A stretch of DNA of 64,000 bases, from the NCBI RefSeq assembly GCF_025526975.1, contig NW_026515689.1:372001-436000 (forward strand), in the 5' to 3' direction. The notes under the pieces were generated by a model, which saw only the letters and a list, made by a program, of their open reading frames with translations, searched no databases and was not told where the DNA came from. Shown piece after piece: positions 1,718 to 10,596 of the stretch; position 1 is the first letter of the stretch, and each line of letters begins with the position of its first letter. This DNA is from Fimicolochytrium jonesii. Lineage: Eukaryota. The position numbers and the translations under genes were made by a program.

Positions 1718-2301
1718 TGTGACGGTCGGATGCAGGTGATCTTCCAGCGTCTGGTTCTGAATTTCAAACGCTTTCGGTTTCGCCGACCGTTGGACGTTGC
1801 GCAAAGCCTTCCGCCGAGTTTTTTGCTCTTGTATCACGTGCCAAAATCATAACGCGCATTTAATTGTTTTGACTCGATGCGGTCAAAGCGTCAGTCGTTT
1901 CGTTTTCCCATGGCTCATGCGCAAAAAGCTTCGGCATTATCCCTATTGGGAGCCGCCGGAGGCGGGAGACCCTATGGCAGCAAAGTATGTCAGGTTGGCA
2001 AGCGCTACACTGCGCTATACACTGACCCTCCCCTATGCCCTCCACTGACCCTCCCTACACAGTCCAACCACAGTGATTCGCAAAAAGCTAAGCTACGTGA
2101 ATGTGGGAATCAATATGCGCTTCTCGGGAGATTGATGAAATGCACGCATTTTTTCACCCATAGTCTAATCATCGGATCTCACCAGAGATGGTGGGCGGCG
2201 TGAAGTAATGGGAGTCTTCTTCAGAAAGCGGTTCCATCATGGTTGTGGCTTCATCACCGTGCCGCTAGACCATGCAACATATTGGATGCTGATGCCTTGA
2301 A

Positions 2302-2831
2302 TGTTATTGACGACGCGTCCATACCATGCGCTTACCTCATGACAGCATCCCAACAGTCAGTCAATGTCAATTCCCTGTCAAAACCTGACATCTGCCAAAC
2401 CTCGCAGCCGCACGCAGCCGCGCTACCCCACACCTGCTACTGCCTTCATTTCTCCACGCAGCCGCACGTAGCCACACCTCCCAACACTCGGTGCTTACAA
2501 ACCCTTCTCCATACTTCCCCACGTACCCGCCCACAGCCTCAGCGTAGCCACCCCATCCCCAGTCTTCTGTTTCTATGCTTCCCCACCCTTGGCGCTTCTC
2601 TTGGCTTCCCTCTCATTCCGTACCCTTCTGCTTCCCCACGCTTCCCCAGCCTTCCCAGAAAAACATAAATAGCCGCCTCCCCTGAGCTCCCCACTTCCTG
2701 ATCCCCCAGCAGATCAACACCAGTTCTTCCTAGTCTTGTTCTAGTTCTTGTTTCGGTCTGAATACCATTACCTGTCAACAACCTGCACCACAAGTCGCCT
2801 CTATTTCCATCGGCTCCGCCCATTCATAACA
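2302..2831 (+). mobile_element. Solo LTR (530 bp)
   Basis: Termini TGTTAT...ATAACA form a perfect 6-bp inverted repeat. Flanking 5-mers TTGAA (2297-2301) and TCGAA (2832-2836) fit a TSD with one CpG transition. TATA-like CATAAATAG near 2664. Confidence 0.7.
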
Positions 2832-3710
2832 TCGAATGCAGGCTGTAAGAGTTGTCACCTTTGTTCTCCACATCATTCTCACCGGCGCTTTGGTTCTCCA
2901 TGCCGCTGTCATAAGTCTCTGCCTCAGCTCTGCGCTTGCCTCAGTTCAGCTCAGCGATGCACCCCCCGGCGAACAGCAGAAGTGGTGCACCGGCCACTGA
3001 TTGTGCAATCCTCCTATCCACACTCCCGCCGGGTCCCTGGTCTCCTCCTCCCCCACCTCCTCCTCCCCCGTTCAAAGCAGCTGCACCGACGTAGGCATCT
3101 CCAGCTCGGTTGCACTCCAACTCGGTTGCATGGTTTTCTGGCCATGGTGAAAACCACAAGGCCACCACAGTAGCCAACCACAAGGGCACCCCAATGCACG
3201 CTGCCTCAAGCAACCGTGGTGGGTACAGATCTAAGCGTGTCCCTTTGCGTGCCTGCTAGAGATGATGTCTGTTGTAGACCACTCTAGCAGAACAAGCTGA
3301 TTCCAACACCATGATTGTGTCAAGGTCAGTTGCTCGCTCCAGCACAGCCAAGATCAGTACAGTCTTGCAGGGTTGTTTGATTGCTGGGATAGCTGTGTGT
3401 CAAAAGAAACCACATCAATTCTGTGGCAATGAAGCTGACAACGGTGAGGGATTGTGGTTATTACCTGCTGGTGATTTGGTGGTGACGATGCTCGCAAATT
3501 GTGTTGGGAAGGAAGCGTCAAGCCGGGGCCTGCCTTGTCGGTGAAATGGTAGAAGAGTCACAGATGCGGCGCGCCGTCGCGGCGAGCCGCTGGTCATATG
3601 AGCCCTGCCTTTTCCCCCGGTCGGCACACCGGACCACTGCCGGATTCGCCCTAAGACTCTGTCTGCTTTGCAGCCATAGAATAGAGGACTCGGTTGTGCG
3701 GCAAAAAAAA

Positions 3711-4839
3711 ATGGCAGATATTGACTGGGATACTTGGCTGGCCAGCAAGCTGGAGAGTGAACTGAAGATTACCGACGAGGTAGGCTGTCGTGACTGACAA
3801 TGCTTCCCACCTCGGCCAATGTGCTAACAATAACAACGTGGTCGCATATTCCGCTGTCTAGACGTTTGCTGAATATATAACCCAACTCTGCACTGAGGTT
3901 TGTAGCTTTCGCCGCTTTTGCCTTTTGCGGCGCCACGTGCCCCACACCTTTCCTTCTGGGCGAACTAGTGCAACTTCTCACTGGTGGCATGTAACGGGGT
4001 AGAACAGGATACGATAGAGGAAGAGGAAAAACGCGAAGTGATAGTGGAGTTCCTCGGTGAGGCAACGTCCGACGAAGCGAACGTGGAGCCAGTCGTCGAC
4101 GAGCTGTTGAAGCGAAATGCGGAGTTTCGGGAAAAGGCGGCCAAGCGAGAAGAGGAGGAAAGACTGAAGGCATTAGAAGCCGCGAAGCGTACGTTGCCAC
4201 CTGCAGAAACCGGATGGATCCTATGGCTGCGTTTCCTATAATTCCTTTGTAGAGAAGGAACTGGAGGCATTGCAATCGAATCGTTCATCCAAAGACCCCC
4301 AGCACGACGATCAATCAAAGACGAAAAAGGCCATGTCAAGTTCCGAAAGACTGGCCCGAGAACGGTTACTAGCGCAGGTAAATAGAACATTGAAGTAGCT
4401 AGATGAGTGCTGACAAGCTGAATAGTTTCGATGGCAGTACGCATATGAGACGGACGATATTGTCGAAACAGCTGATGGGGCGGCGGAGTCCGTGTCTACA
4501 CGGAAAAAGGGCGGTGAGAGAGACTGTGAGTATGCGAGGCCACTAACCAGGACCATCTCATTGCGCCAGTGGTGGGCTGATCTCCATTTCCGGTAGTGTT
4601 AGCTAAAAACGATAATGCGGAACGGATACGGCAGGAAGAACAGGCGAAGAGGTGCGTCTTAGGGTACCGCGCCTTACCTTCCCAGGTCAACTTACCTTGC
4701 ACTTCGGTCTTACAGAGCCAAAGCGCAGGCCGATCATCAGAAGAAAGTGCAGCGAGACAAAGAGTTGCTGGAAAAACAGAGGCTCGACAAGGAGAACCAG
4801 AAGAAGAAGACCGTGAAGAGCGAAAAGCGTAGAATGTAA
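3711..4839 (+). CDS. CCDC43-like coiled-coil protein (multi-exon)
   Basis: MADIDWDTWLASKLE..., EEEEKREVIVEFLGEAT, KNDNAERIRQEEQAKR, C-terminal KKKTVKSEKRRM* (TAA 4837-4839); several short GT-AG introns. Confidence 0.7.
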
Positions 4840-6033
4840 AGTAGATGGAGAATCTGGGCTTTTTGTGGAGCCGGACCTCTATGGTTGAGGTCGATCAGAT
4901 CGGGGACCCCGGAAGCAAAGATATTCACATAGCGAAAGACTGACTAGCGCTGCCGCTGTACCCTGCGTAGGAAGAACTATAGGAAGAGTACTGGGAAGCC
5001 TGGCTGTCGGCTTGTCGGTGGATGCTGGCATTGTGTTCATGCTGTCGTGTGTGCAGCGAATATGGGGATGGATATATATCTGCAGGAGACACCAGGTATG
5101 CATCCCCATATGCATCTTCTACCTCCTTGCCCAACTTTGCGGAATGCTTCACAGAATCCCCATCCGGACATGGTGCGCAAGGGTGCACATCCAGTAGGCC
5201 AGCCAGATATCCGGGTACGACGGGTTCGCCAAGCCTCCGTGTGCAACCCAAAAGTCACCGGCCAGGGCTGCTTTGACTTGCTGCCGTCACCGTCACTTTG
5301 AAACCAACCAAGATCTCGCAATTGCAATCCACTTCACAAAGATCATCCGAATCAAATTGCTCAGTCCACTCAAACAACGTTGGGGATACCTCCTACAGCA
5401 CTCCCAACGAGTCCTGAAGCCCACATCTATATCCCCTGCCTACCACATTCTGGTGGAGAATGGAGACGTAGACCACTGGGGAAGTACAGCAATCCATAGA
5501 TAACCGCAACCGTCGCAGTCCAACGAACCAATCGTTTCCTCCGGGCGCCTGACTTCGAGTTTGGCCATTTCCACGACATTCCTACGCCGTACCGCGCGCT
5601 CTTATCGATTTTCATAAGTATCCACGGCGACGAACGGACATCGATCCATCCATCCCTTCCCAACAACAATCCATCCATCCGGCAACGAATTCCAGAGCAT
5701 CCTCGTCTCGGCAACCTCGTTTCGGCAACCTCGTATCCGACAACGGCGTCCGTAGCGCAATCGTTTCGGCTATCCTCCCAGCCCGCATATTCTTCAATCG
5801 CCATCCTTCGGCTGGAGATACTCTAAGAAGGGGAACGCACTCTCGCGCGCGCCTTGGAGCCCTATGCTACACTGTGATACGTCACTTTTCTTCTACCGCA
5901 CTATACTTCGTAGGCCCGCCGTTGCGAAGGGCAGCAATTGCGAAGGGCAGAGAGCATTCTGAGCCCCGCATCCTGCCAGGGAGCATTCTGAGCACGTCGA
6001 AAGCACAACCTCGAAGCAAACAGCAGTAGGGTA

Positions 6034-7115
6034 GTGAAGTCAGCGGCAGCAACATCTTGTCCCAGTTTGGAAATGGCGTTGGAAGATGAAGCGGACCTTG
6101 CCGCGGAGATCGCAGCCCAGGAGGCAGCGCGCGCAGCGCAGGCAAAGAGAATGAAGGAGCTGAGAGCCCAGGCCGCAAAACCCAAGCGAGCCGCTGCCAC
6201 GTCGTCGTCGTCTACGCCAACAGCCGAGTCCACTCACCGCCGGCAGCCTGCGACCGCAGCCCGCGAGCATTCCGAGCTCGCTACAAAGAGGAGAAAGGCG
6301 GTGGAGCTGGATGAGGAGGTGGAGAGTCGTCGTGGGAGCAGGAGGGGCAGTCGAGCGCAATCACCGGTGGAGGCGGGCATATCGTTGTCGGACGATGAAG
6401 GGGTGGTGGAGGTGGTGGAACGCGCGAAGCCGGAGGGGAAGCACCCTGTTGCCGGGGTGGACGACGCGGAAGACGAGGACTATAAGCCTCCTGCTGGAAG
6501 GAAGAGGAGGTGCGAAGGCCGCGTTCTACCCCGCGTTCGGTCGCCAGGAAATGTCCGCCTTTACGACGTCGGCTCCCTCGCTCACAACGACAGCACTCCC
6601 GACGCCAGAAGAGTTCTTCAACTCTACCAGCACCGAGAAAGGCACGAAAGAAGAACTAAGTACAGTCAAGTACAATAATGCAGGTTACCCACGTCGTCGA
6701 CGGTCGGCCCCCGGAGCAAACAGCCACGGGCGAGATGCCGACATTGCCTCCGACATTTTGACAACCCCAGCACTCGACAACCACACCAGCACACAATGGG
6801 GAGAGTACTGATTTCCCAGAAGAGATCAGCCATACTTGCCTGGGGTTGTCAAAATGTCGAAGAATGTCGGCCTCTTGGCAATCTTGGCGACGGCGTTGGC
6901 TGTTTGCTCTGGGGGCCGACCGTCGCCTCACGTGGGTGACCTGCTTTATTGTACTTGACTGTATATATATTGCAGAGTTTCTTCGCGCAAACAACAAGGT
7001 ATCCTTGCATTCTCTTGCGCGCGTTTTTCCGATCGTCCCTTCTCATGTATTTTTTGTAGGAGACTTGGATCGACAAATCCCAAAATCTTTTCATAATATC
7101 TGGTTATTGTGACTA
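6034..7115 (+). pseudogene. Disrupted low-complexity hypothetical gene interrupted by a MITE
   Basis: Charged A/E/R-rich ORF 6034-6678 with an apparent frame change near 6510. Removing the MITE and one TA restores EELSIYIAEFLRANNK, followed by a GT-AG intron-like segment. Confidence 0.4.
6663..6961. mobile_element. Tc1/mariner-type MITE (299 bp) with long imperfect TIRs and TA TSD
   Basis: TA|CAGTCAAGTACAATAA...TTATTGTACTTGACTG|TA; the arms stay complementary for about 110 bp (…GACATTTTGACAACCCCAG / CTGGGGTTGTCAAAATGTC…). Confidence 0.9.
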
Positions 7116-7195
7116 ACTCAAATTCACCCTAGTGACCAACGTCCTATTCGAACCTTAGGTTTGATTTCTATAGTTAAGTTATGATGTGGTGATAA

Positions 7196-8038
7196 TTGAC
7201 TGCGTACCTAGACGTGCGAAAAGCTGGATCCGACGTCACGAGTGGCTCTACCCGTCCTGACGGCAACCAGTGTTCCATCGATCCGGGGAGCAGAGTGCCA
7301 TGGACGTGTTTCGACGCGCATCGCCGCAGGTTTTACGACATCTACCCAGATTTGGTGGACAAACTCTCCAACCTTCACAACGAAATCACCCTGCCAAGCC
7401 GCAAGGATTCGGGAGCGACCATGCCGGGAGGTCGTCCGGCTCACCGGAGGCGCAAGAGGCAGAGAAAACGAGCGAAGGGGAAGAAACGGAAGAAGAAACG
7501 GCACTGGCGAAAGAACCGCGAACGTCACATATCCAGGCTATACGACCGGATGAAGACCATTGTGAGCGCACGGGGCCAAGCGCACGGGGCGTTTGCCAAC
7601 CATCCCGTCCGATGTTATGACATGGTCGTCCTCCCCGAATTCATGACGGCAGGGATGGTCCGGAAGCCACGAAAGCAGCTCAAACTCCCGCCCTTGCGAG
7701 AACGAGAGGCGTTGAACGCACCCCCCAAGGAGGGCAGGTTCACGCTCCACAAGACCACTCGCAAGGCGATGCGATGGATATCGCACCACGCCTTTCGCCA
7801 GAGGATGTTCGCCAAGGCCTTGGCCGATCCTCGCGAGACGAAGGATGTCCTGTGCACGACGGAGGAGTACACCACCAAACAATGTCCTTTCTGCGACCTT
7901 GTTCACCACAAAATTGGATCGAACAAGGTGTTCAAGTGCGGGAACGAAGCGTGCGGCTTCGAGGGTAGGAGGGACAACGTTGGGTGTTTCAATGTCGGAC
8001 TTCGAGCGATCGTCAAAAACGAAATAGTGATGGTATGA
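7196..8038 (+). CDS. Fanzor2/TnpB-like RNA-guided endonuclease, RuvC plus zinc-finger half (5'-truncated, no ATG)
   Basis: RuvC-I SIDPGSR (D at 7280), YDMVVLPEF, LHKTTRKAMRWISHHAFRQRM, displaced RuvC-II EEYTTK (7862-), zinc finger CPFC...CGNEAC, RuvC-III RRDNVGCFNV (D at 7973). Confidence 0.88.
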   Translation: MTAYLDVRKAGSDVTSGSTRPDGNQCSIDPGSRVPWTCFDAHRRRFYDIYPDLVDKLSNLHNEITLPSRKDSGATMPGGRPAHRRRKRQRKRAKGKKRKKKRHWRKNRERHISRLYDRMKTIVSARGQAHGAFANHPVRCYDMVVLPEFMTAGMVRKPRKQLKLPPLREREALNAPPKEGRFTLHKTTRKAMRWISHHAFRQRMFAKALADPRETKDVLCTTEEYTTKQCPFCDLVHHKIGSNKVFKCGNEACGFEGRRDNVGCFNVGLRAIVKNEIVMV

Positions 8039-8184
8039 GACTCTCTGAGAGTATGCCCTTACCTTCAAGGGCGAGGAGGACCTAGTCTAGAAATAGTTCG
8101 CTATGTATAGCTATGGACACTCCTCAGTTAGAAGGTGAAAGGACACCTACGTCGCCTCAATCGCTCCCGGTTTCGGACAGCCGG
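8039..8184 (+). ncRNA. Candidate Fanzor omega-RNA scaffold / element right end
   Basis: Directly 3' of the Fanzor stop. Stems GCCCTT/AAGGGC (8055-8072), GAGGAG/CTCCTC (8073-8125) and CCGGTT/AGCCGG (8167-8184); loop ACCTTC (8061-8066) is complementary to GAAGGT (8131-8136). Sequence becomes A/T-rich after ...GCCGG. Confidence 0.65.
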
Positions 8185-8417
8185 AATGAAAGTTTTACAA
8201 AATCATTCCAAGAATAGGTAAATAGCTACAGGCTGAAAAGCTCGCACACACCCAACGCCAAAAGAGGTCAGACCGTCAATTGCTTCGCTCCCGCCCTCAT
8301 GTTCTTGCTACGGTCTGCTAACCCACCCCCACGGTGTCTTCCCCTTCGGTGCTTCAGTTCGCAGAGAGATTGTTTCTTGGTTCAGATCTCCATCTGCCGC
8401 AAGTCTTCATCCTGCAA

Positions 8418-9903
8418 TCATTCCTCCAAGGCGGCATCTTCGACCTCCGGAGCATCAGCCTCAGAATCCGAGCTCCCCTGTGGTTTCCGACTGTCCACAC
8501 TTTCCTGTAGGCCCCGGACGACAGAAGGTTCAGATTCGTCTCGTGCACCGCCAGATCTCTCGTGAAGCTGTTGCTGTGGCCGCTCATGCAGGCCTTTAGG
8601 TTCATGGTCATGGAGGCGGTGCTGCAGCTCGAAGATGGTTTCTTGCATTGCCTCGTTTTCCCGGTCAAGCTCCAAAGACAGCTGGTCGGATTCTATGCGG
8701 ACGTTACCGATCAGTTGTCGTTTGCGATGCGCGCTGACGGACAGACCCTTGCCTCTCAATCTTCTCTCCAACTTCTCAACAACGGCCTTCTCCATGGCGA
8801 GCGCTGTCTGCAGTTGCTCGACTCTTCCTTGGTACAGCTGCTTGCCTAGCTCTTCGTTCTCGGTCTGAAGAGCTTTGAGCTTCGATACGAGCTTTTTGCC
8901 GGTGATGCTGTGAGCCATATATGCGAGAGCGGAAGCTGCCGATAAGCATCCAGTTTCACATCACTATCGTGCGAACGGAGACTTCGCCTCGTTACCTATA
9001 CGGCGTGAAGCTCACGCCCAATATCTCTCGCTGCAGATGTTCGATCTTTTTGTTTTTCTCCTCAACTTCTTTCTTCATTGCACCGTACAGTAGAGCCCAT
9101 GTTGGATCCAGCAGCTTCGTGGGCGAACTTTCCAGGTCGCGATCTGATTGCTGACGTCTGAGGGCTTGCAATTCGGCCTACGGATTGAAATCATTATGGT
9201 TTATCCGAAGCGGCTCTGCACTTCACTCAGAGGGTACCGTTAAAGCGCCGATATCTTGGTCCTTCTTCGCCAACTTGAGAATCATGGAGCTCTCCGGTTG
9301 GGATCTTTTCTCCAGTTCTGACTGGAATTTTGCCAGCCGCTGCCGCAACAGCTTATTCTCTGCCTGCAGCTCATCGAGAGATGCGCCACTGCTGGGTCCG
9401 GATGCAGTTCGGAGCTTAGTAGTGGTAGTGGATGCTGTTGGGGTCACTGCTGGGGCTCCTGGCGTCTGTGGTTGATTTCTCGGGGAGGCAGCAGGTGTTG
9501 GTCCCACTCCGCTGGAGATGATAGTAGTGTTGGCAAGAGGCGGATTTGATGCAGTAAAGTCCCTGGATGAGGGTGTGGATGGCGTTTGTTCTACATAAGA
9601 GGCAAAGGAGGGCTCGAATGGTGATGCCATAAATGAATCCGAAGGTGATATACAGATCTTTAAACAGATGAGAGTGAGAGGACATCCGGCAGCGAGTTCT
9701 CCATCTGATTTTTCTACCTTCTTGTTGCCGTTCTGATGATGATGATGATCGGAAGTTCCAATCTTTTGCGAGGTAGGGACAACACCAGCATAGCTGCCGG
9801 AATTTAGGGATATGCTATTGCTCAGGTCGTCCGGGAACGGCCGTTTCTGAGAGGTACGCTGTTCTGCTTGGAAAAGAGATTGCGCTGTTAGGCGATCGGG
9901 CAT
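8418..9903 (-). CDS. WTAP/Mum2/Fl(2)d family m6A methyltransferase complex subunit (multi-exon)
   Basis: LLDPTWALLYGAMKKEVEEK...GVSFTPY|SITGKKLVSKLKALQTENEELGKQL...GRVEQLQTALAMEK is the WTAP signature. Confidence 0.85.
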
Positions 9904-10596
9904 TTTGCTTTACTTCGCAAATCCTCAGTTCAATGACAACACCATCTCAAAAGTTAGGTCTCGTCTTACTGACCAACTGCCTCTGCGAGGTCTGGCATCT
10001 TCTTTTGCTTCAGTAAATGGGCTTAGCACTACCCATTTATCCCTGGTAACCGAAAAAGTTGTAGGAAGTCCCCAGCAGAGTTTTCCAGAAACGATGCTTT
10101 ACCAGGAATTCTTGAAAACGGTACTGTTATGGAAACTGCGTGGTGCGTGAGTTAAATGTTACCTCCACTGGAAAACGCCAAGAGAGTAGAAAGAGGGAGA
10201 CGACCCGGTGAATAAACGCTAGGAAACAGTACCAAGGCTTGGAGTACCCTTGACGGGTCGGGTCACCCGGTGGCCGTTCCGTCCCCCCGCGCCGCACCCA
10301 CAATTTGCAGCGGAATGACTCTCCGCTTGGGGGTGACGTGTGCACAGGCCCAATTGACAGGAATTCGACACCGCGTAGTCACGTGCTCAGCGGGATCCTC
10401 CAGGAGCAGCCATTTACTTCGAAGCCACATTCCATTTTCCCACGCTTTCCTCCAGACTTGACCAGGTTCCCACGAAAAAAAAAGGTCTCGAATACCCTCC
10501 ACCATCGCTGCCCGCTCCATCCAGTTAGTTCGCGCTGAGCATCCATAGGCGAAGACTAGTCCTCTTGTCCGAGGCCACAGATAGCACCCAGCAGGC

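What the first reader, a model, noticed from the sequence alone, without database searches (positions are those of the whole stretch)
7196..8038. Fanzor2-type RNA-guided nuclease relic with all three RuvC acidic residues
Seen: DPG, LPEF where canonical TnpB has its RuvC-II Glu, the displaced EEYTTK glutamate, a 4-Cys zinc finger and RD-N. Established: this rearranged site with the YD..LP.F / SH..F.QR motifs typifies Fanzor2 (IS607-TnpB derived), whereas the characterised Spizellomyces enzyme is a Fanzor1. This copy lacks the N-terminal WED/REC region and has a 9-nt in-frame insertion from a local duplication (AGCGCACGGGGC at 7565 and 7579). It is probably dead but may point to intact family members elsewhere in the genome.
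Basis: partly seen in the sequence, partly recalled or inferred. Interest (0 to 1): 0.75.

Follow-up and report, generated by a model that had tools for sequence, protein, structure and literature searches.

The report
Dead Fanzor2 transposon remnant in chytrid
This stretch is the broken remnant of an IS607-like jumping gene in a chytrid fungus: it keeps only the DNA-cutting rear half of a Fanzor2-type RNA-guided nuclease plus scraps of its serine recombinase, so it is likely dead and is an ordinary transposon fossil.

Summary
ORF 7196-8038 (280 codons) carries DPG, LPEF, the displaced Glu (TEEY), a four-Cys zinc ribbon and RRDN. It passes Pfam's Cas12f1-like TNB cut-off and matches a chytrid protein family at E 1e-105 to 1e-123.

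The relic is larger than reported, about 6505-8137. Upstream lie remnants of an IS607-type serine recombinase gene: a MerR-HTH tail, the YIYCRVSS catalytic motif and a 61-nt GT-AG intron. A 299-bp TA-flanked foldback insertion splits that gene. About 1.5 kb, covering the rest of tnpA and the Fanzor WED/REC part, is deleted. One frameshift (~7245) and a net +9-nt local duplication (7565/7579) follow. A conserved 3' hairpin (8062-8135), likely the omegaRNA/right end, survives.

The Fanzor2 call is supported by three things: the serine-recombinase partner; a family profile that hits only mimivirus Fanzor2 among solved Fanzors (E 3e-14, no Fanzor1 at E<=10); and a predicted fold closest to TnpB/ApmFz2.

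Full-length relatives (640-880 aa) exist in other chytrids, and more distant ones in Tilletia, an aphelid and soil metagenomes. The host genome was not available. This is a new member of a known kind, of low to moderate interest.

The parts
6505..6662 (+). tnpA exon 1 remnant (C-terminal part of the MerR-type HTH, '...RVRSPGNVRLYDV...HERRTKY'). The 5' end is truncated: the first ~20 codons and the left end are missing. The start coordinate is approximate (+/-20).
   Evidence: tblastn of P0025 aa 27-76 onto 6523-6660. blastn of 6533-6664 against L001 1645-1785, 78%. No similarity upstream of ~6505 in the 3-way alignment. The L001 counterpart scores MerR PF00376 at 35.1 bits.
6663..6961 (.). 299-bp foldback (MITE-like) insertion flanked by TA (6661-6662 and 6962-6963). 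It splits the tnpA ORF.
   Evidence: Inverted repeats I1-I3. L001 and L002 are continuous across this point. Removing 6663-6963 restores the frame as '...RTKYIYCRVSSRKQQG'. DNA fold -117 kcal/mol, z -20.
6962..6998 (+). End of tnpA exon 1 with the serine-recombinase catalytic motif YIYCRVSSRKQQ(G).
   Evidence: tblastn of P0025 aa 77-90. 93% nt identity to L001 1782-1822.
6999..7059 (+). 61-nt GT...AG spliceosomal intron of tnpA.
   Evidence: Removing it gives 'KQQGDLDRQI', identical to P0025. L001 has an intron at the same place.
7060..7078 (+). First codons of tnpA exon 2 ((G)DLDRQI). Homology stops here, at the left edge of the ~1.5-kb internal deletion.
   Evidence: blastn of 7055-7078 against L001 1881-1904, 92%; translation.
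7079..7197 (.). AT-rich (34% GC) junction or filler with no homology to the family. It stands in place of L001 ~1905-3410 (rest of tnpA plus Fanzor N-terminus, WED and REC).
   Evidence: No match in tblastn, blastn or hmmsearch. GC content.
7198..7257 (+). Fanzor linker-helix remnant 'RRAKSWIRRHEWLY' read in another frame. A frameshift near 7245 separates it from the main ORF.
   Evidence: Three-frame translation. Second-best fragment of 2721 in the six-frame hmmsearch, at profile positions 546-560 directly before the main match at 565-825, but E is only 0.43.
7262..8038 (+). Fanzor2-like C-terminal half: RuvC-I (DPG 7280-7288), LPEF strand (7631-7642), alternative Glu (TEEY 7859-7870), zinc ribbon (7883-7954), RuvC-III RRDN (7967-7978), stop 8036-8038. 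Includes the net +9-nt duplication at 7565-7590.
8039..8137 (+). Conserved 3' non-coding module with a hairpin at 8062-8135, ending in AGGTG. It is the likely omegaRNA scaffold end and right end of the element. Conservation stops after ~8137.
   Evidence: 3- and 4-way DNA alignments. Pair counts: 84% of cells paired against 33-52% when slid, 7 of 23 pairs compensatory, from 3 sequences only. Fold of 7900-8150 has z -2.97.

Best explanation
The ORF at 7196-8038 is the C-terminal RuvC/zinc-finger half of a Fanzor2-like nuclease, and it sits inside a 5'-truncated, internally deleted and insertion-disrupted IS607-like element (window ~6505-8137) that is likely non-functional.

Shown here: intact relatives in other chytrids and in soil metagenomes are built as follows. 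First comes tnpA (MerR-HTH plus serine recombinase, with one short spliceosomal intron). Then comes a ~640-680-aa Fanzor ORF on the same strand. Then comes ~100 nt of conserved 3' sequence with a hairpin.

In the window copy:
- the left end and the first ~20 tnpA codons are gone;
- a 299-bp TA-flanked foldback element sits between 'RTKY' and 'IYCRVSS';
- about 1.5 kb (the rest of tnpA plus the Fanzor N-terminus, WED and REC) is replaced by 119 bp of AT-rich filler;
- the remaining Fanzor part has one frameshift, a net +9-nt local duplication, Gln in place of the family's Met before CSIDPG, and no in-frame ATG before residue 76.

Inferred from characterised relatives (ApmFz2, IS607 TnpB): in intact elements the serine recombinase would move the double-stranded element. 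The Fanzor, loaded with an omegaRNA transcribed from the 3' end whose guide is the flanking DNA, would cut TAM-flanked empty sites and so favour retention of the element. This copy can do neither. At most its 3' module could still be transcribed.
For: Homology: Pfam PF07282 above cut-off. 14 near-length and 16 longer homologues, all named ones from Chytridiomycetes (Borealophlyctis, Thoreauomyces, Geranomyces, Rhizophlyctis), best P0015 at 72% over 92%.

Extent and lesions: tblastn and blastn mapping, alignments, frame tests, six-frame HMM scan of the whole window.

Serine-recombinase partner: P0015 carries PF00239 and P0025 carries PF00376/PF13411. L001 exon 1 scores MerR at 35.1 bits; exon 2 scores Resolvase at 19.9 bits, below the 23.3 cut-off.

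Fanzor2 affinity: the family profile hits 9b0l_P (ApmFz2) at E 3.1e-14 in three collinear stretches covering REC/WED, RuvC-I and RuvC-II/ZnF/RuvC-III. It is the only Fanzor among 11 PDB hits at E<=10. Foldseek's top hit for the AF2 model of P0022 is 9b0l_P at E 2.6e-13. VIA-align gives ISDra2 TnpB Z 18.2 and ApmFz2 Z 15.2 with 376 residues aligned and 19% identity.

Triad: D of DPG, E of TEEY and D of RRDN align to the ApmFz2 CGIDPG, NEY and DRD motifs. The AF2 model places LPE at the end of a strand and TEEY just after the last strand before the zinc ribbon.

Eukaryotic residence: GT-AG intron and flanking host genes WTAP, COG8 and RCC1.

Decay: 3 of 57 otherwise invariant columns are changed, two of them to Pro, against 0-2 of 54-56 in 12 relatives. 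The terminal branch is 0.34 against 0.13 for the nearest relative.
Against: The ORF is still open for 280 codons, and the catalytic, zinc and most invariant residues are intact (54 of 57). Decay of this half is therefore slight, and inactivation rests on the missing parts, not on the ORF itself.

The left boundary (~6505) and right boundary (~8137) come from loss of similarity to only two or three diverged relatives. No empty site was seen.

The frameshifted helix remnant is statistically weak on its own (E 0.43).

The Fanzor2 assignment lacks a phylogeny with labelled Fanzor1, Fanzor2 and TnpB references. The family (~670 aa) is also longer than the ~500 aa that PMC10711439 gives for Fanzor2.

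The AF2 model is of middling confidence (pLDDT 72.8, pTM 0.46).

No RNA data bear on the omegaRNA or on expression.
Confidence: 0.85

Rival explanations
1. The truncated ORF is a working or domesticated short protein: a RuvC plus zinc-ribbon module expressed by itself or from an upstream exon.
For: The frame is open for 280 codons with the triad and zinc ligands intact, and only 3 of 57 invariant columns are changed. Gene models of 240-298 aa that start at the family's Met in 'GNM[CA]SIDPG' exist in several chytrids (P0001, P0003, P0004, P0008).
Against: That Met is Gln here, and the first in-frame ATG is at residue 76, after RuvC-I. The WED/REC parts that bind omegaRNA and target DNA in solved relatives are absent. 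A frameshift lies directly upstream. Three of the short models sit on contigs of 0.9-1.3 kb, so they are probably cut or truncated copies called from the first Met. Two helix positions are changed to Pro.
Confidence: 0.05
2. It is a non-autonomous derivative that still matters in trans. Its surviving 3' module would be transcribed into an omegaRNA whose guide is the DNA right of ~8137, and this would be used by intact Fanzor2 copies elsewhere in the genome.
For: The 3' ~100 nt and its hairpin are conserved with compensatory changes, and the region folds better than shuffles (z -2.97). Internal-deletion derivatives that keep their ends are usual for DNA transposons (general knowledge).
Against: The left end is missing, so TnpA could not mobilise it. 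No intact copy is known in this genome (not searchable; none in the window). There are no RNA data. The support comes from only three sequences, and the structure was derived from the same alignment.
Confidence: 0.07
3. It is a Fanzor1 relic, like the characterised Spizellomyces SPu-1/SpuFz1 family, and not Fanzor2.
For: The host is a chytrid near Spizellomycetales, a group rich in Fanzor1 (PMC3627910 and PMC10432273, passages). DPG plus the alternative Glu occur in Fanzor1 too (PMC10711439). The family length (~670 aa) is in the Fanzor1 range.
Against: The element carries an IS607-type serine recombinase, and PMC10711439 reports that 'no Fanzor1s appeared to be encoded in IS607 transposons'. 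SPu-1 has 33-bp TIRs, TA duplications and a single ORF. The family profile finds ApmFz2 at 3e-14 and no Fanzor1 chain at E<=10.
Confidence: 0.03
4. It is bacterial IS607 DNA, present through contamination or very recent transfer, and not a resident eukaryotic element.
For: IS607 is a prokaryotic family. NCBIfam's guided_TnpB and IS607_TnpB models give weak matches.
Against: There is a GT-AG intron in tnpA at the same place as in L001. The relic lies between intron-bearing host genes in one contiguous window. All named close relatives are fungal. Both NCBIfam scores are far below their cut-offs (29 against 100; 14 against 350).
Confidence: 0.01

Closest known systems
ApmFz2 (Acanthamoeba polyphaga mimivirus Fanzor2, 'TnpB-like protein L79', PDB 9B0L), encoded in an IS607-type element with TnpA
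   Same: It has an IS607 serine-recombinase partner, DPG in RuvC-I, a Glu just before the zinc ribbon, the S...F.QR helix motif and RD in RuvC-III (alignment). It is the best sequence match among solved structures (E 3.1e-14), Foldseek's top hit and VIA Z 15.2. Its omegaRNA is encoded at the 3' end up to the right end (PMC10530073 and PMC11832414, passages).
   Different: Identity is only 15-19%. The chytrid family is ~150 aa longer: an N-terminal ~135-aa extension outside the TnpB-like core (model range 133-672), and ~70 profile positions facing 23 ApmFz2 residues after the LPEF strand. It is a nuclear fungal element with an intron in tnpA. The window copy lacks everything before RuvC-I.
ISDra2 TnpB (PDB 8H1J, 8EXA) and IS607-family TnpB
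   Same: It shares the WED-REC-RuvC-zinc-ribbon architecture and gives the highest structural Z to the family model (18.2, with 356 of 362 residues aligned). It is a transposon-encoded nuclease with a 3' omegaRNA.
   Different: It has the canonical RuvC-II Glu and D-hydrophobic-G (PMC10711439). ISDra2 uses a Y1 transposase. It is prokaryotic, with no intron and no basic NLS-like extension.
SpuFz1 / SPu-1 (Fanzor1 of Spizellomyces punctatus)
   Same: It is a chytrid-borne Fanzor with DPG and the alternative Glu (per PMC10711439).
   Different: It is a single-ORF element with 33-bp TIRs and TA duplications and no serine recombinase (PMC3627910). The family profile shows no similarity to it at E<=10.
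Eukaryotic IS607-like sequences (PMC3673617; Fanzor2 elements of PMC3627910)
   Same: These are full or fragmentary tnpA/ORFB copies integrated in eukaryotic nuclear genomes, many of them truncated.
   Different: Those surveys list Amoebozoa, Ascomycetes, Basidiomycetes, Stramenopiles, a choanoflagellate and viruses, but no Chytridiomycota. S. punctatus is listed with 3 Fanzor1 families and no Fanzor2 family.

Membership tests
TnpB/Fanzor superfamily | Cas12f1-like TNB (OrfB zinc-ribbon) domain | tested here: met
   PF07282 scores 30 bits against a cut-off of 26.3, aa 214-267. CPFC-x14-CGNEAC motif.
TnpB/Fanzor superfamily | RuvC D-E-D triad present | tested here: met
   D29 (DPG), E223/224 (TEEY) and D260 (RRDN), aligned to the ApmFz2 motifs through the family profile.
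TnpB/Fanzor superfamily | N-terminal WED and REC domains | tested here: not met
   Absent from this copy and from the whole window. Present in full-length relatives (profile stretch 77-303 against ApmFz2 26-260; fold). The locus is a fragment of a member, not a whole member.
TnpB/Fanzor superfamily | omegaRNA encoded at the 3' end, and RNA-guided DNA cleavage | tested here: inconclusive
   A conserved 3' hairpin with compensatory pairs, in 3 sequences. No RNA data; cleavage is not testable with these tools.
Fanzor (as against ordinary TnpB) | DPG in RuvC-I plus the alternative Glu six residues before the first CxxC (PMC10711439) | tested here: met
   DPG at aa 29-31; E223 + 6 residues + C230. 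That paper's strict pattern fails only on spacing (193 residues against 120-160) and because the second Cys pair is CxxxxC.
Fanzor2 | Encoded in an IS607-type element beside a TnpA serine recombinase | tested here: met
   tnpA remnants at 6505-7078 on the same strand. Relatives carry MerR plus Resolvase.
Fanzor2 | Closer to TnpB/Fanzor2 than to Fanzor1 in sequence | tested here: met
   The profile gives ApmFz2 E 3.1e-14 and no Fanzor1 chain among the 11 PDB hits at E<=10.
Fanzor2 | TnpB-like compact fold (as against the Fanzor1 fold with REC2 and other insertions) | tested here: inconclusive
   The best structural matches are ISDra2 TnpB (Z 18.2), ApmFz2 (Z 15.2) and Cas12f. The model has pLDDT 72.8. 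That Fanzor1 entries are not listed is not evidence.
Fanzor2 | Clade membership in a phylogeny with labelled Fanzor1, Fanzor2 and TnpB | not tested
   No labelled Fanzor1 or Fanzor2 sequences could be fetched. The tree holds only the family and unnamed or fungal relatives.
IS607-like transposon | TnpA with an N-terminal MerR-type HTH and a serine-recombinase catalytic domain, placed upstream of tnpB | tested here: met
   Window remnants 'RSPGNVRLYDV' and 'YIYCRVSS'. L001 scores MerR at 35.1 bits and Resolvase at 19.9 bits (below cut-off); P0015 carries PF00239.
IS607-like transposon | No terminal inverted repeats and no target-site duplication | not testable with these tools
   The left end is missing here. 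The ends of L001 and L002 are not defined, and no empty site is available.

The most novel reading that the evidence does not exclude
The relic is a fossil of a distinct 'long' Fanzor2 lineage: a ~670-aa nuclease with a ~135-aa basic N-terminal extension, paired with a serine-recombinase gene that has acquired a spliceosomal intron. This lineage has settled in early-diverging and other fungi (chytrids, an aphelid, Tilletia, a glomeromycete) and still has apparently intact copies, such as the 672-codon ORF of L001. That would make it a eukaryote-adapted IS607 system whose nuclease and omegaRNA could be active.
Probability: 0.3. Interest if true: 0.5.

Novelty: new member of a known kind. Interest (0 to 1): 0.27.

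Why it matters
By itself the locus is a dead transposon copy with no likely consequence for the host. It has two uses. First, it shows that IS607-type Fanzor2 elements, with a serine recombinase that carries a spliceosomal intron, live in chytrid genomes, a group known so far for Fanzor1. The 2013 surveys I read list no chytrid among IS607/Fanzor2 hosts. Second, it leads to full-length relatives that could be tested as RNA-guided nucleases. It is also a clean example of how such elements decay: 5' truncation, internal deletion, a nested foldback insertion and small indels.

Tried and rejected
- Whole-genome search for further copies: no genome is held for this window. Within the window there is none.
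- Public sequencing runs: none was listed and no RNA holder was listed, so nothing can be said on expression.
- Earlier findings of this scan: nothing by sequence or by place.
- Viral contigs: 41 pattern matches, none confirmed as a relative.
- Rfam over 6300-8500: one sub-threshold match (MIR1446, 19.3 bits against 70) inside the foldback insertion, taken as chance.
- Fanzor1 structures (8GKH and 9CER-9CF3, as listed in PMC11423790) are not among the 50 rows shown by Foldseek or by VIA-align. Not being listed does not exclude them.
- dN/dS: synonymous sites are saturated (pS 0.76-0.84), so no ratio can be given. It shows only that most divergence was under constraint (pN 0.22).
- I considered that the Glu of LPEF is a retained canonical RuvC-II Glu. 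I rejected this because relatives have Q (P0187) or R (P0191) there, while the Glu before the zinc ribbon is kept in all five relatives inspected.
- Names for ten long, more distant hits: none carried an organism name.
- I considered that the ORF upstream (5992-6505), which is in frame with the tnpA remnant, belongs to the element. It has no similarity to L001 or L002 and no Pfam match. Left open.
- Paper searches for Fanzor together with chytrid genera: none of the 10 listed papers (of 100 found) holds 'Fanzor'. Supplementary tables of the 2023 surveys, which may list these chytrid proteins, were not read.
Full report
**1. Observation**

The window holds a stop-to-stop ORF at 7196..8038 (+) of 280 codons. 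These are SIDPG (aa 27-31), YDMVVLPEF (141-149), SHHAFRQR (196-203), TEEYTTKQ (222-229), CPFC-x14-CGNEAC (230-253) and RRDN (258-261).

Pfam's Cas12f1-like TNB domain (PF07282) matches aa 214-267 at 30 bits, above the curated 26.3. NCBIfam's guided_TnpB and IS607_TnpB models match weakly and far below their cut-offs (29 against 100; 14 against 350). A direct phmmer search of solved structures gives only marginal Cas12f matches (best E 0.11, 9 hits at E<=10).

The 12-mer AGCGCACGGGGC stands at 7565 and 7579. Only five loci in the 64-kb window have an exact, non-simple direct repeat of 12 nt or more within 20 nt, so it is a real local duplication. All 13 relatives aligned lack three residues here (IV-R-QAHGAF against IV-SARG-QAHGAF). 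At the codon level, a 12-nt copy of the downstream sequence stands where L001 and L002 have one Arg codon, a net gain of +9 nt.

**2. Relatives**

The ORF has 14 homologues of similar length and 16 longer ones. Every one that carries an organism name comes from Chytridiomycetes: Borealophlyctis nickersoniae and Rhizophlyctis rosea (Rhizophlyctidales), and Thoreauomyces humboldtii and Geranomyces (Spizellomycetales). The rest come from metagenomes.

The best hit is P0015 (829 aa), 72% identical over 92% of the ORF. The long forms are 560-880 aa. The window ORF aligns to their last ~260 residues.

Two long gene models carry recombinase domains. P0015 has PF00239 (Resolvase). P0025 has PF00376/PF13411 (MerR HTH) ahead of PF07282.

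A profile search of 1.84 billion cluster representatives finds 46 at E<=1e-30, 1648 at E<=1e-10 and 3902 at E<=0.001. Named members among the next-closest clusters come from Tilletia (Basidiomycota), Amoeboaphelidium and Scutellospora. The Scutellospora model is fused to a TnpA-like N-terminus.

**3. The relic is larger than the ORF**

tblastn with the long models finds two more pieces upstream on the same strand. Window 6523-6660 reads '...RVRSPGNVRLYDVGSLAHNDSTPDARRVLQLYQHRERHERRTKY' and matches P0025 aa 27-76, the tail of the MerR HTH. Window 6962-7000 reads 'YIYCRVSSRKQQG' and matches the serine-recombinase catalytic motif of P0025 aa 77-90.

A scan of metagenome contigs gave three related loci. 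L001 (6845 bp) holds tnpA in two exons followed by an uninterrupted 672-codon Fanzor ORF at 2240-4255. Its exon 1 scores MerR at 35.1 bits. Its exon 2 scores Resolvase at 19.9 bits, below the 23.3 cut-off for this 58-aa piece.

At the DNA level the matches are as follows:

| Window | L001 | Identity |
|---|---|---|
| 6533-6664 | 1645-1785 | 78% |
| 6962-7002 | 1782-1822 | 93% |
| 7055-7078 | 1881-1904 | 92% |

Three conclusions follow.

(a) Window 6663-6961 is an insertion relative to L001 and L002. It is a 299-bp foldback whose arms pair over most of their length (DNA fold z -20). It is flanked by TA on both sides. Removing 6663-6963 restores one frame reading '...HERRTKYIYCRVSSRKQQG'.

(b) 6999-7059 is a 61-nt GT...AG intron. 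Removing it gives 'KQQGDLDRQI', exactly as in P0025. L001 has an intron at the same place.

(c) Homology stops at 7078 and resumes at about 7198, which corresponds to L001 ~3410. About 1.5 kb is therefore missing: the rest of tnpA and the Fanzor N-terminus, WED and REC. It is replaced by 119 bp of 34%-GC filler.

Upstream of ~6505 the window no longer resembles L001 or L002, although those two still resemble each other through the tnpA start. The first ~20 codons of tnpA and the left end are therefore missing.

Just before the main ORF, another frame reads 'RRAKSWIRRHEWLY' (7198-7257). This corresponds to the family's 'RAK.WI.R...LF' helix. In a six-frame HMM scan of all 2721 fragments of the window it is the second-best hit and is collinear with the main match (profile 546-560, then 565-825). 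Its own E-value is only 0.43. I read it as a frameshift near 7245. No other piece of the family exists in the window.

**4. The 3' module**

After the stop codon, the window, L001 and L002 stay alignable for about 100 nt and then diverge. The last shared letters are AGGTG, at window ~8133-8137.

RNAalifold predicts a hairpin at window 8062-8135. Counted on the three sequences, 84% of cells pair, against 33-52% when the partners are slid. 7 of 23 pairs show changes on both sides, against 0-3 when slid.

There are two caveats: only three sequences were available, and the structure was derived from this same alignment. Window 7900-8150 folds better than shuffles (z -2.97).

In ApmFz2 and IS607 TnpB the omegaRNA scaffold overlaps the 3' end of the ORF and runs to the right end (PMC10530073, PMC10711439 and PMC11832414, passages). 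I therefore take 8039-8137 as the likely end of the omegaRNA scaffold and the right end of the element. This is inferred, not shown.

**5. Fanzor1 or Fanzor2**

According to passages of PMC10711439, DPG plus a Glu six residues before the zinc finger characterise Fanzor1, Fanzor2 and a small cyanobacterial TnpB clade alike. That feature says 'Fanzor', not 'Fanzor2'.

The assignment is nevertheless supported by other evidence.

(i) The element carries an IS607-type serine recombinase. PMC3627910 places Fanzor2 only in IS607-type elements. PMC10711439 found no Fanzor1 in IS607 transposons.

(ii) A profile of 13 family members plus the window ORF hits the mimivirus Fanzor2 chain 9b0l_P at E 3.1e-14. 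The hit is in three collinear stretches covering REC/WED, RuvC-I and RuvC-II/zinc ribbon/RuvC-III. It is the only Fanzor among the 11 hits at E<=10.

(iii) An AlphaFold2 model of P0022 (pLDDT 72.8, pTM 0.46) has 9b0l_P as Foldseek's top hit (E 2.6e-13). By VIA-align it is closest to ISDra2 TnpB (Z 18.2, rmsd 7.4, 356 aligned), ApmFz2 (Z 15.2, rmsd 8.7, 376 aligned, 19% identity), ISFba1 TnpB (Z 14.7) and Cas12f (Z ~14).

The same sequences show that the Glu of LPEF is not conserved, while the Glu before the zinc ribbon is.

In the model, YDVIVLPE forms a strand ending at P-E, which is the canonical RuvC-II position (Pro or Gly in Fanzors, per the bioRxiv preprint 2026.06.23.733943). TEEY follows the last strand before the zinc ribbon. 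That matches the description of the Fanzor Glu in PMC11423790.

Two things are missing. There is no tree with labelled Fanzor1, Fanzor2 and TnpB references. The family is also longer (~670 aa) than typical Fanzor2. It has an N-terminal ~135 residues outside the TnpB-like core, and ~70 profile positions after the LPEF strand that face only 23 ApmFz2 residues.

**6. State of the copy**

The remaining half is little decayed. The window differs at 3 of 57 columns that are invariant in the other 13 sequences: Q to S, L to P in ANHLV, and R to P in RKRRK. The 12 closer relatives differ at 0-2 of 54-56 such columns, and the distant P0030 at 5 of 59.

Against L001, pN is 0.22 and pS 0.76 (saturated), so most of the divergence accrued under constraint.

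I built a tree of 26 rows. Seven rows (P0005, P0016, P0027, P0028, P0153, P0156 and P0159) were dropped by my motif filter. The window sits inside the chytrid clade (support 100/100, 21 rows), nearest to Borealophlyctis P0015. Its terminal branch is 0.34 against 0.13 for P0015.

The copy cannot make a Fanzor. The family's Met in 'GNM[CA]SIDPG' is Gln here. The first in-frame ATG is at residue 76, after RuvC-I. About 60% of the protein is missing. It cannot make a recombinase either.

**7. Host and neighbours**

The downstream gene on the minus strand (8418-8957 and on) is a WTAP/Mum2 homologue (58.9 bits). The window also encodes COG8/Dor1, an RCC1-repeat protein, a GH5 enzyme and others.

The COG8 ORF is 49-58% identical to those of Powellomyces, Geranomyces, Thoreauomyces and Spizellomyces. 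The host is therefore a chytrid near Spizellomycetales, but none of these species.

**8. What is known**

PMC3627910 lists S. punctatus with three Fanzor1 families and no Fanzor2 family. PMC3673617 found IS607-like sequences in Amoebozoa, Ascomycetes, Basidiomycetes and Stramenopiles only. PMC10432273 states that Fz2 'is found broadly in fungi'.

My three searches turned up no paper that describes IS607/Fanzor2 elements of chytrids. I did not read the supplementary tables of the 2023 surveys, which may list these proteins. All papers were read as passages returned by 'find', not in full.

**9. Verdict**

This is a truncated, internally deleted and insertion-split copy of an IS607-like tnpA-Fanzor2 element. 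It is a new member of a known kind and is likely dead. The relatives it points to are of modest interest.

Noticed in passing
window 6661-6963: A 299-bp foldback element with TA on both flanks and arms that pair almost end to end (DNA fold z -20). It looks like a Stowaway/Tc1-mariner-type MITE nested in the tnpA remnant. No second copy occurs in the window. Whether it relates to the ORF-less inverted-repeat loci reported around SpuFz1 elements (PMC10432273) could not be tested.
   Followed up: partly
L001 1886-2240; gene models P0017, P0020, P0025, P0030, P0153, P0156: The Fanzor reading frame stays open for ~118 codons upstream of its conserved Met and overlaps tnpA exon 2 in another frame. 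The resulting peptide ('...APVFAPW...SRR.W...') recurs in gene models from chytrids, Tilletia and Amoeboaphelidium. It could be a by-product of tnpA conservation or a real overlapping N-terminal extension.
   Followed up: no
L001 1557-4360: A soil-metagenome contig with an apparently complete element: tnpA with a 64-nt intron, an uninterrupted 672-codon Fanzor ORF (2240-4255) and the conserved 3' hairpin. The tnpA frame is broken once near 2060 ('HRERLV*' then 'LLQLVFETCHV').
   Followed up: partly
proteins P0001, P0003, P0004, P0008, P0009: Several chytrid and metagenome gene models of 197-298 aa start at or near the Met of 'GNM[CA]SIDPG'. P0004, like the window copy, loses homology just before the 'RA..WI.R' helix. 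Truncation near this point may recur, or these may be artefacts of gene calling.
   Followed up: no
window 5992-6505 (+): An open frame that encodes an Ala/Glu/Arg/Ser-rich, low-complexity peptide and runs in frame into the tnpA remnant. It has no Pfam match and no similarity to the DNA upstream of tnpA in L001 or L002. Its origin is unknown.
   Followed up: partly
window 8418-9909 (-): A WTAP/Mum2-family gene (m6A-writer subunit homologue) with introns. Its 3' end faces the right end of the relic.
   Followed up: partly
window 3042, 5708, 5922, 63468: Four other places hold an exact direct repeat of 12 nt or more within 20 nt. These are small local duplications like the one in the relic.
   Followed up: no
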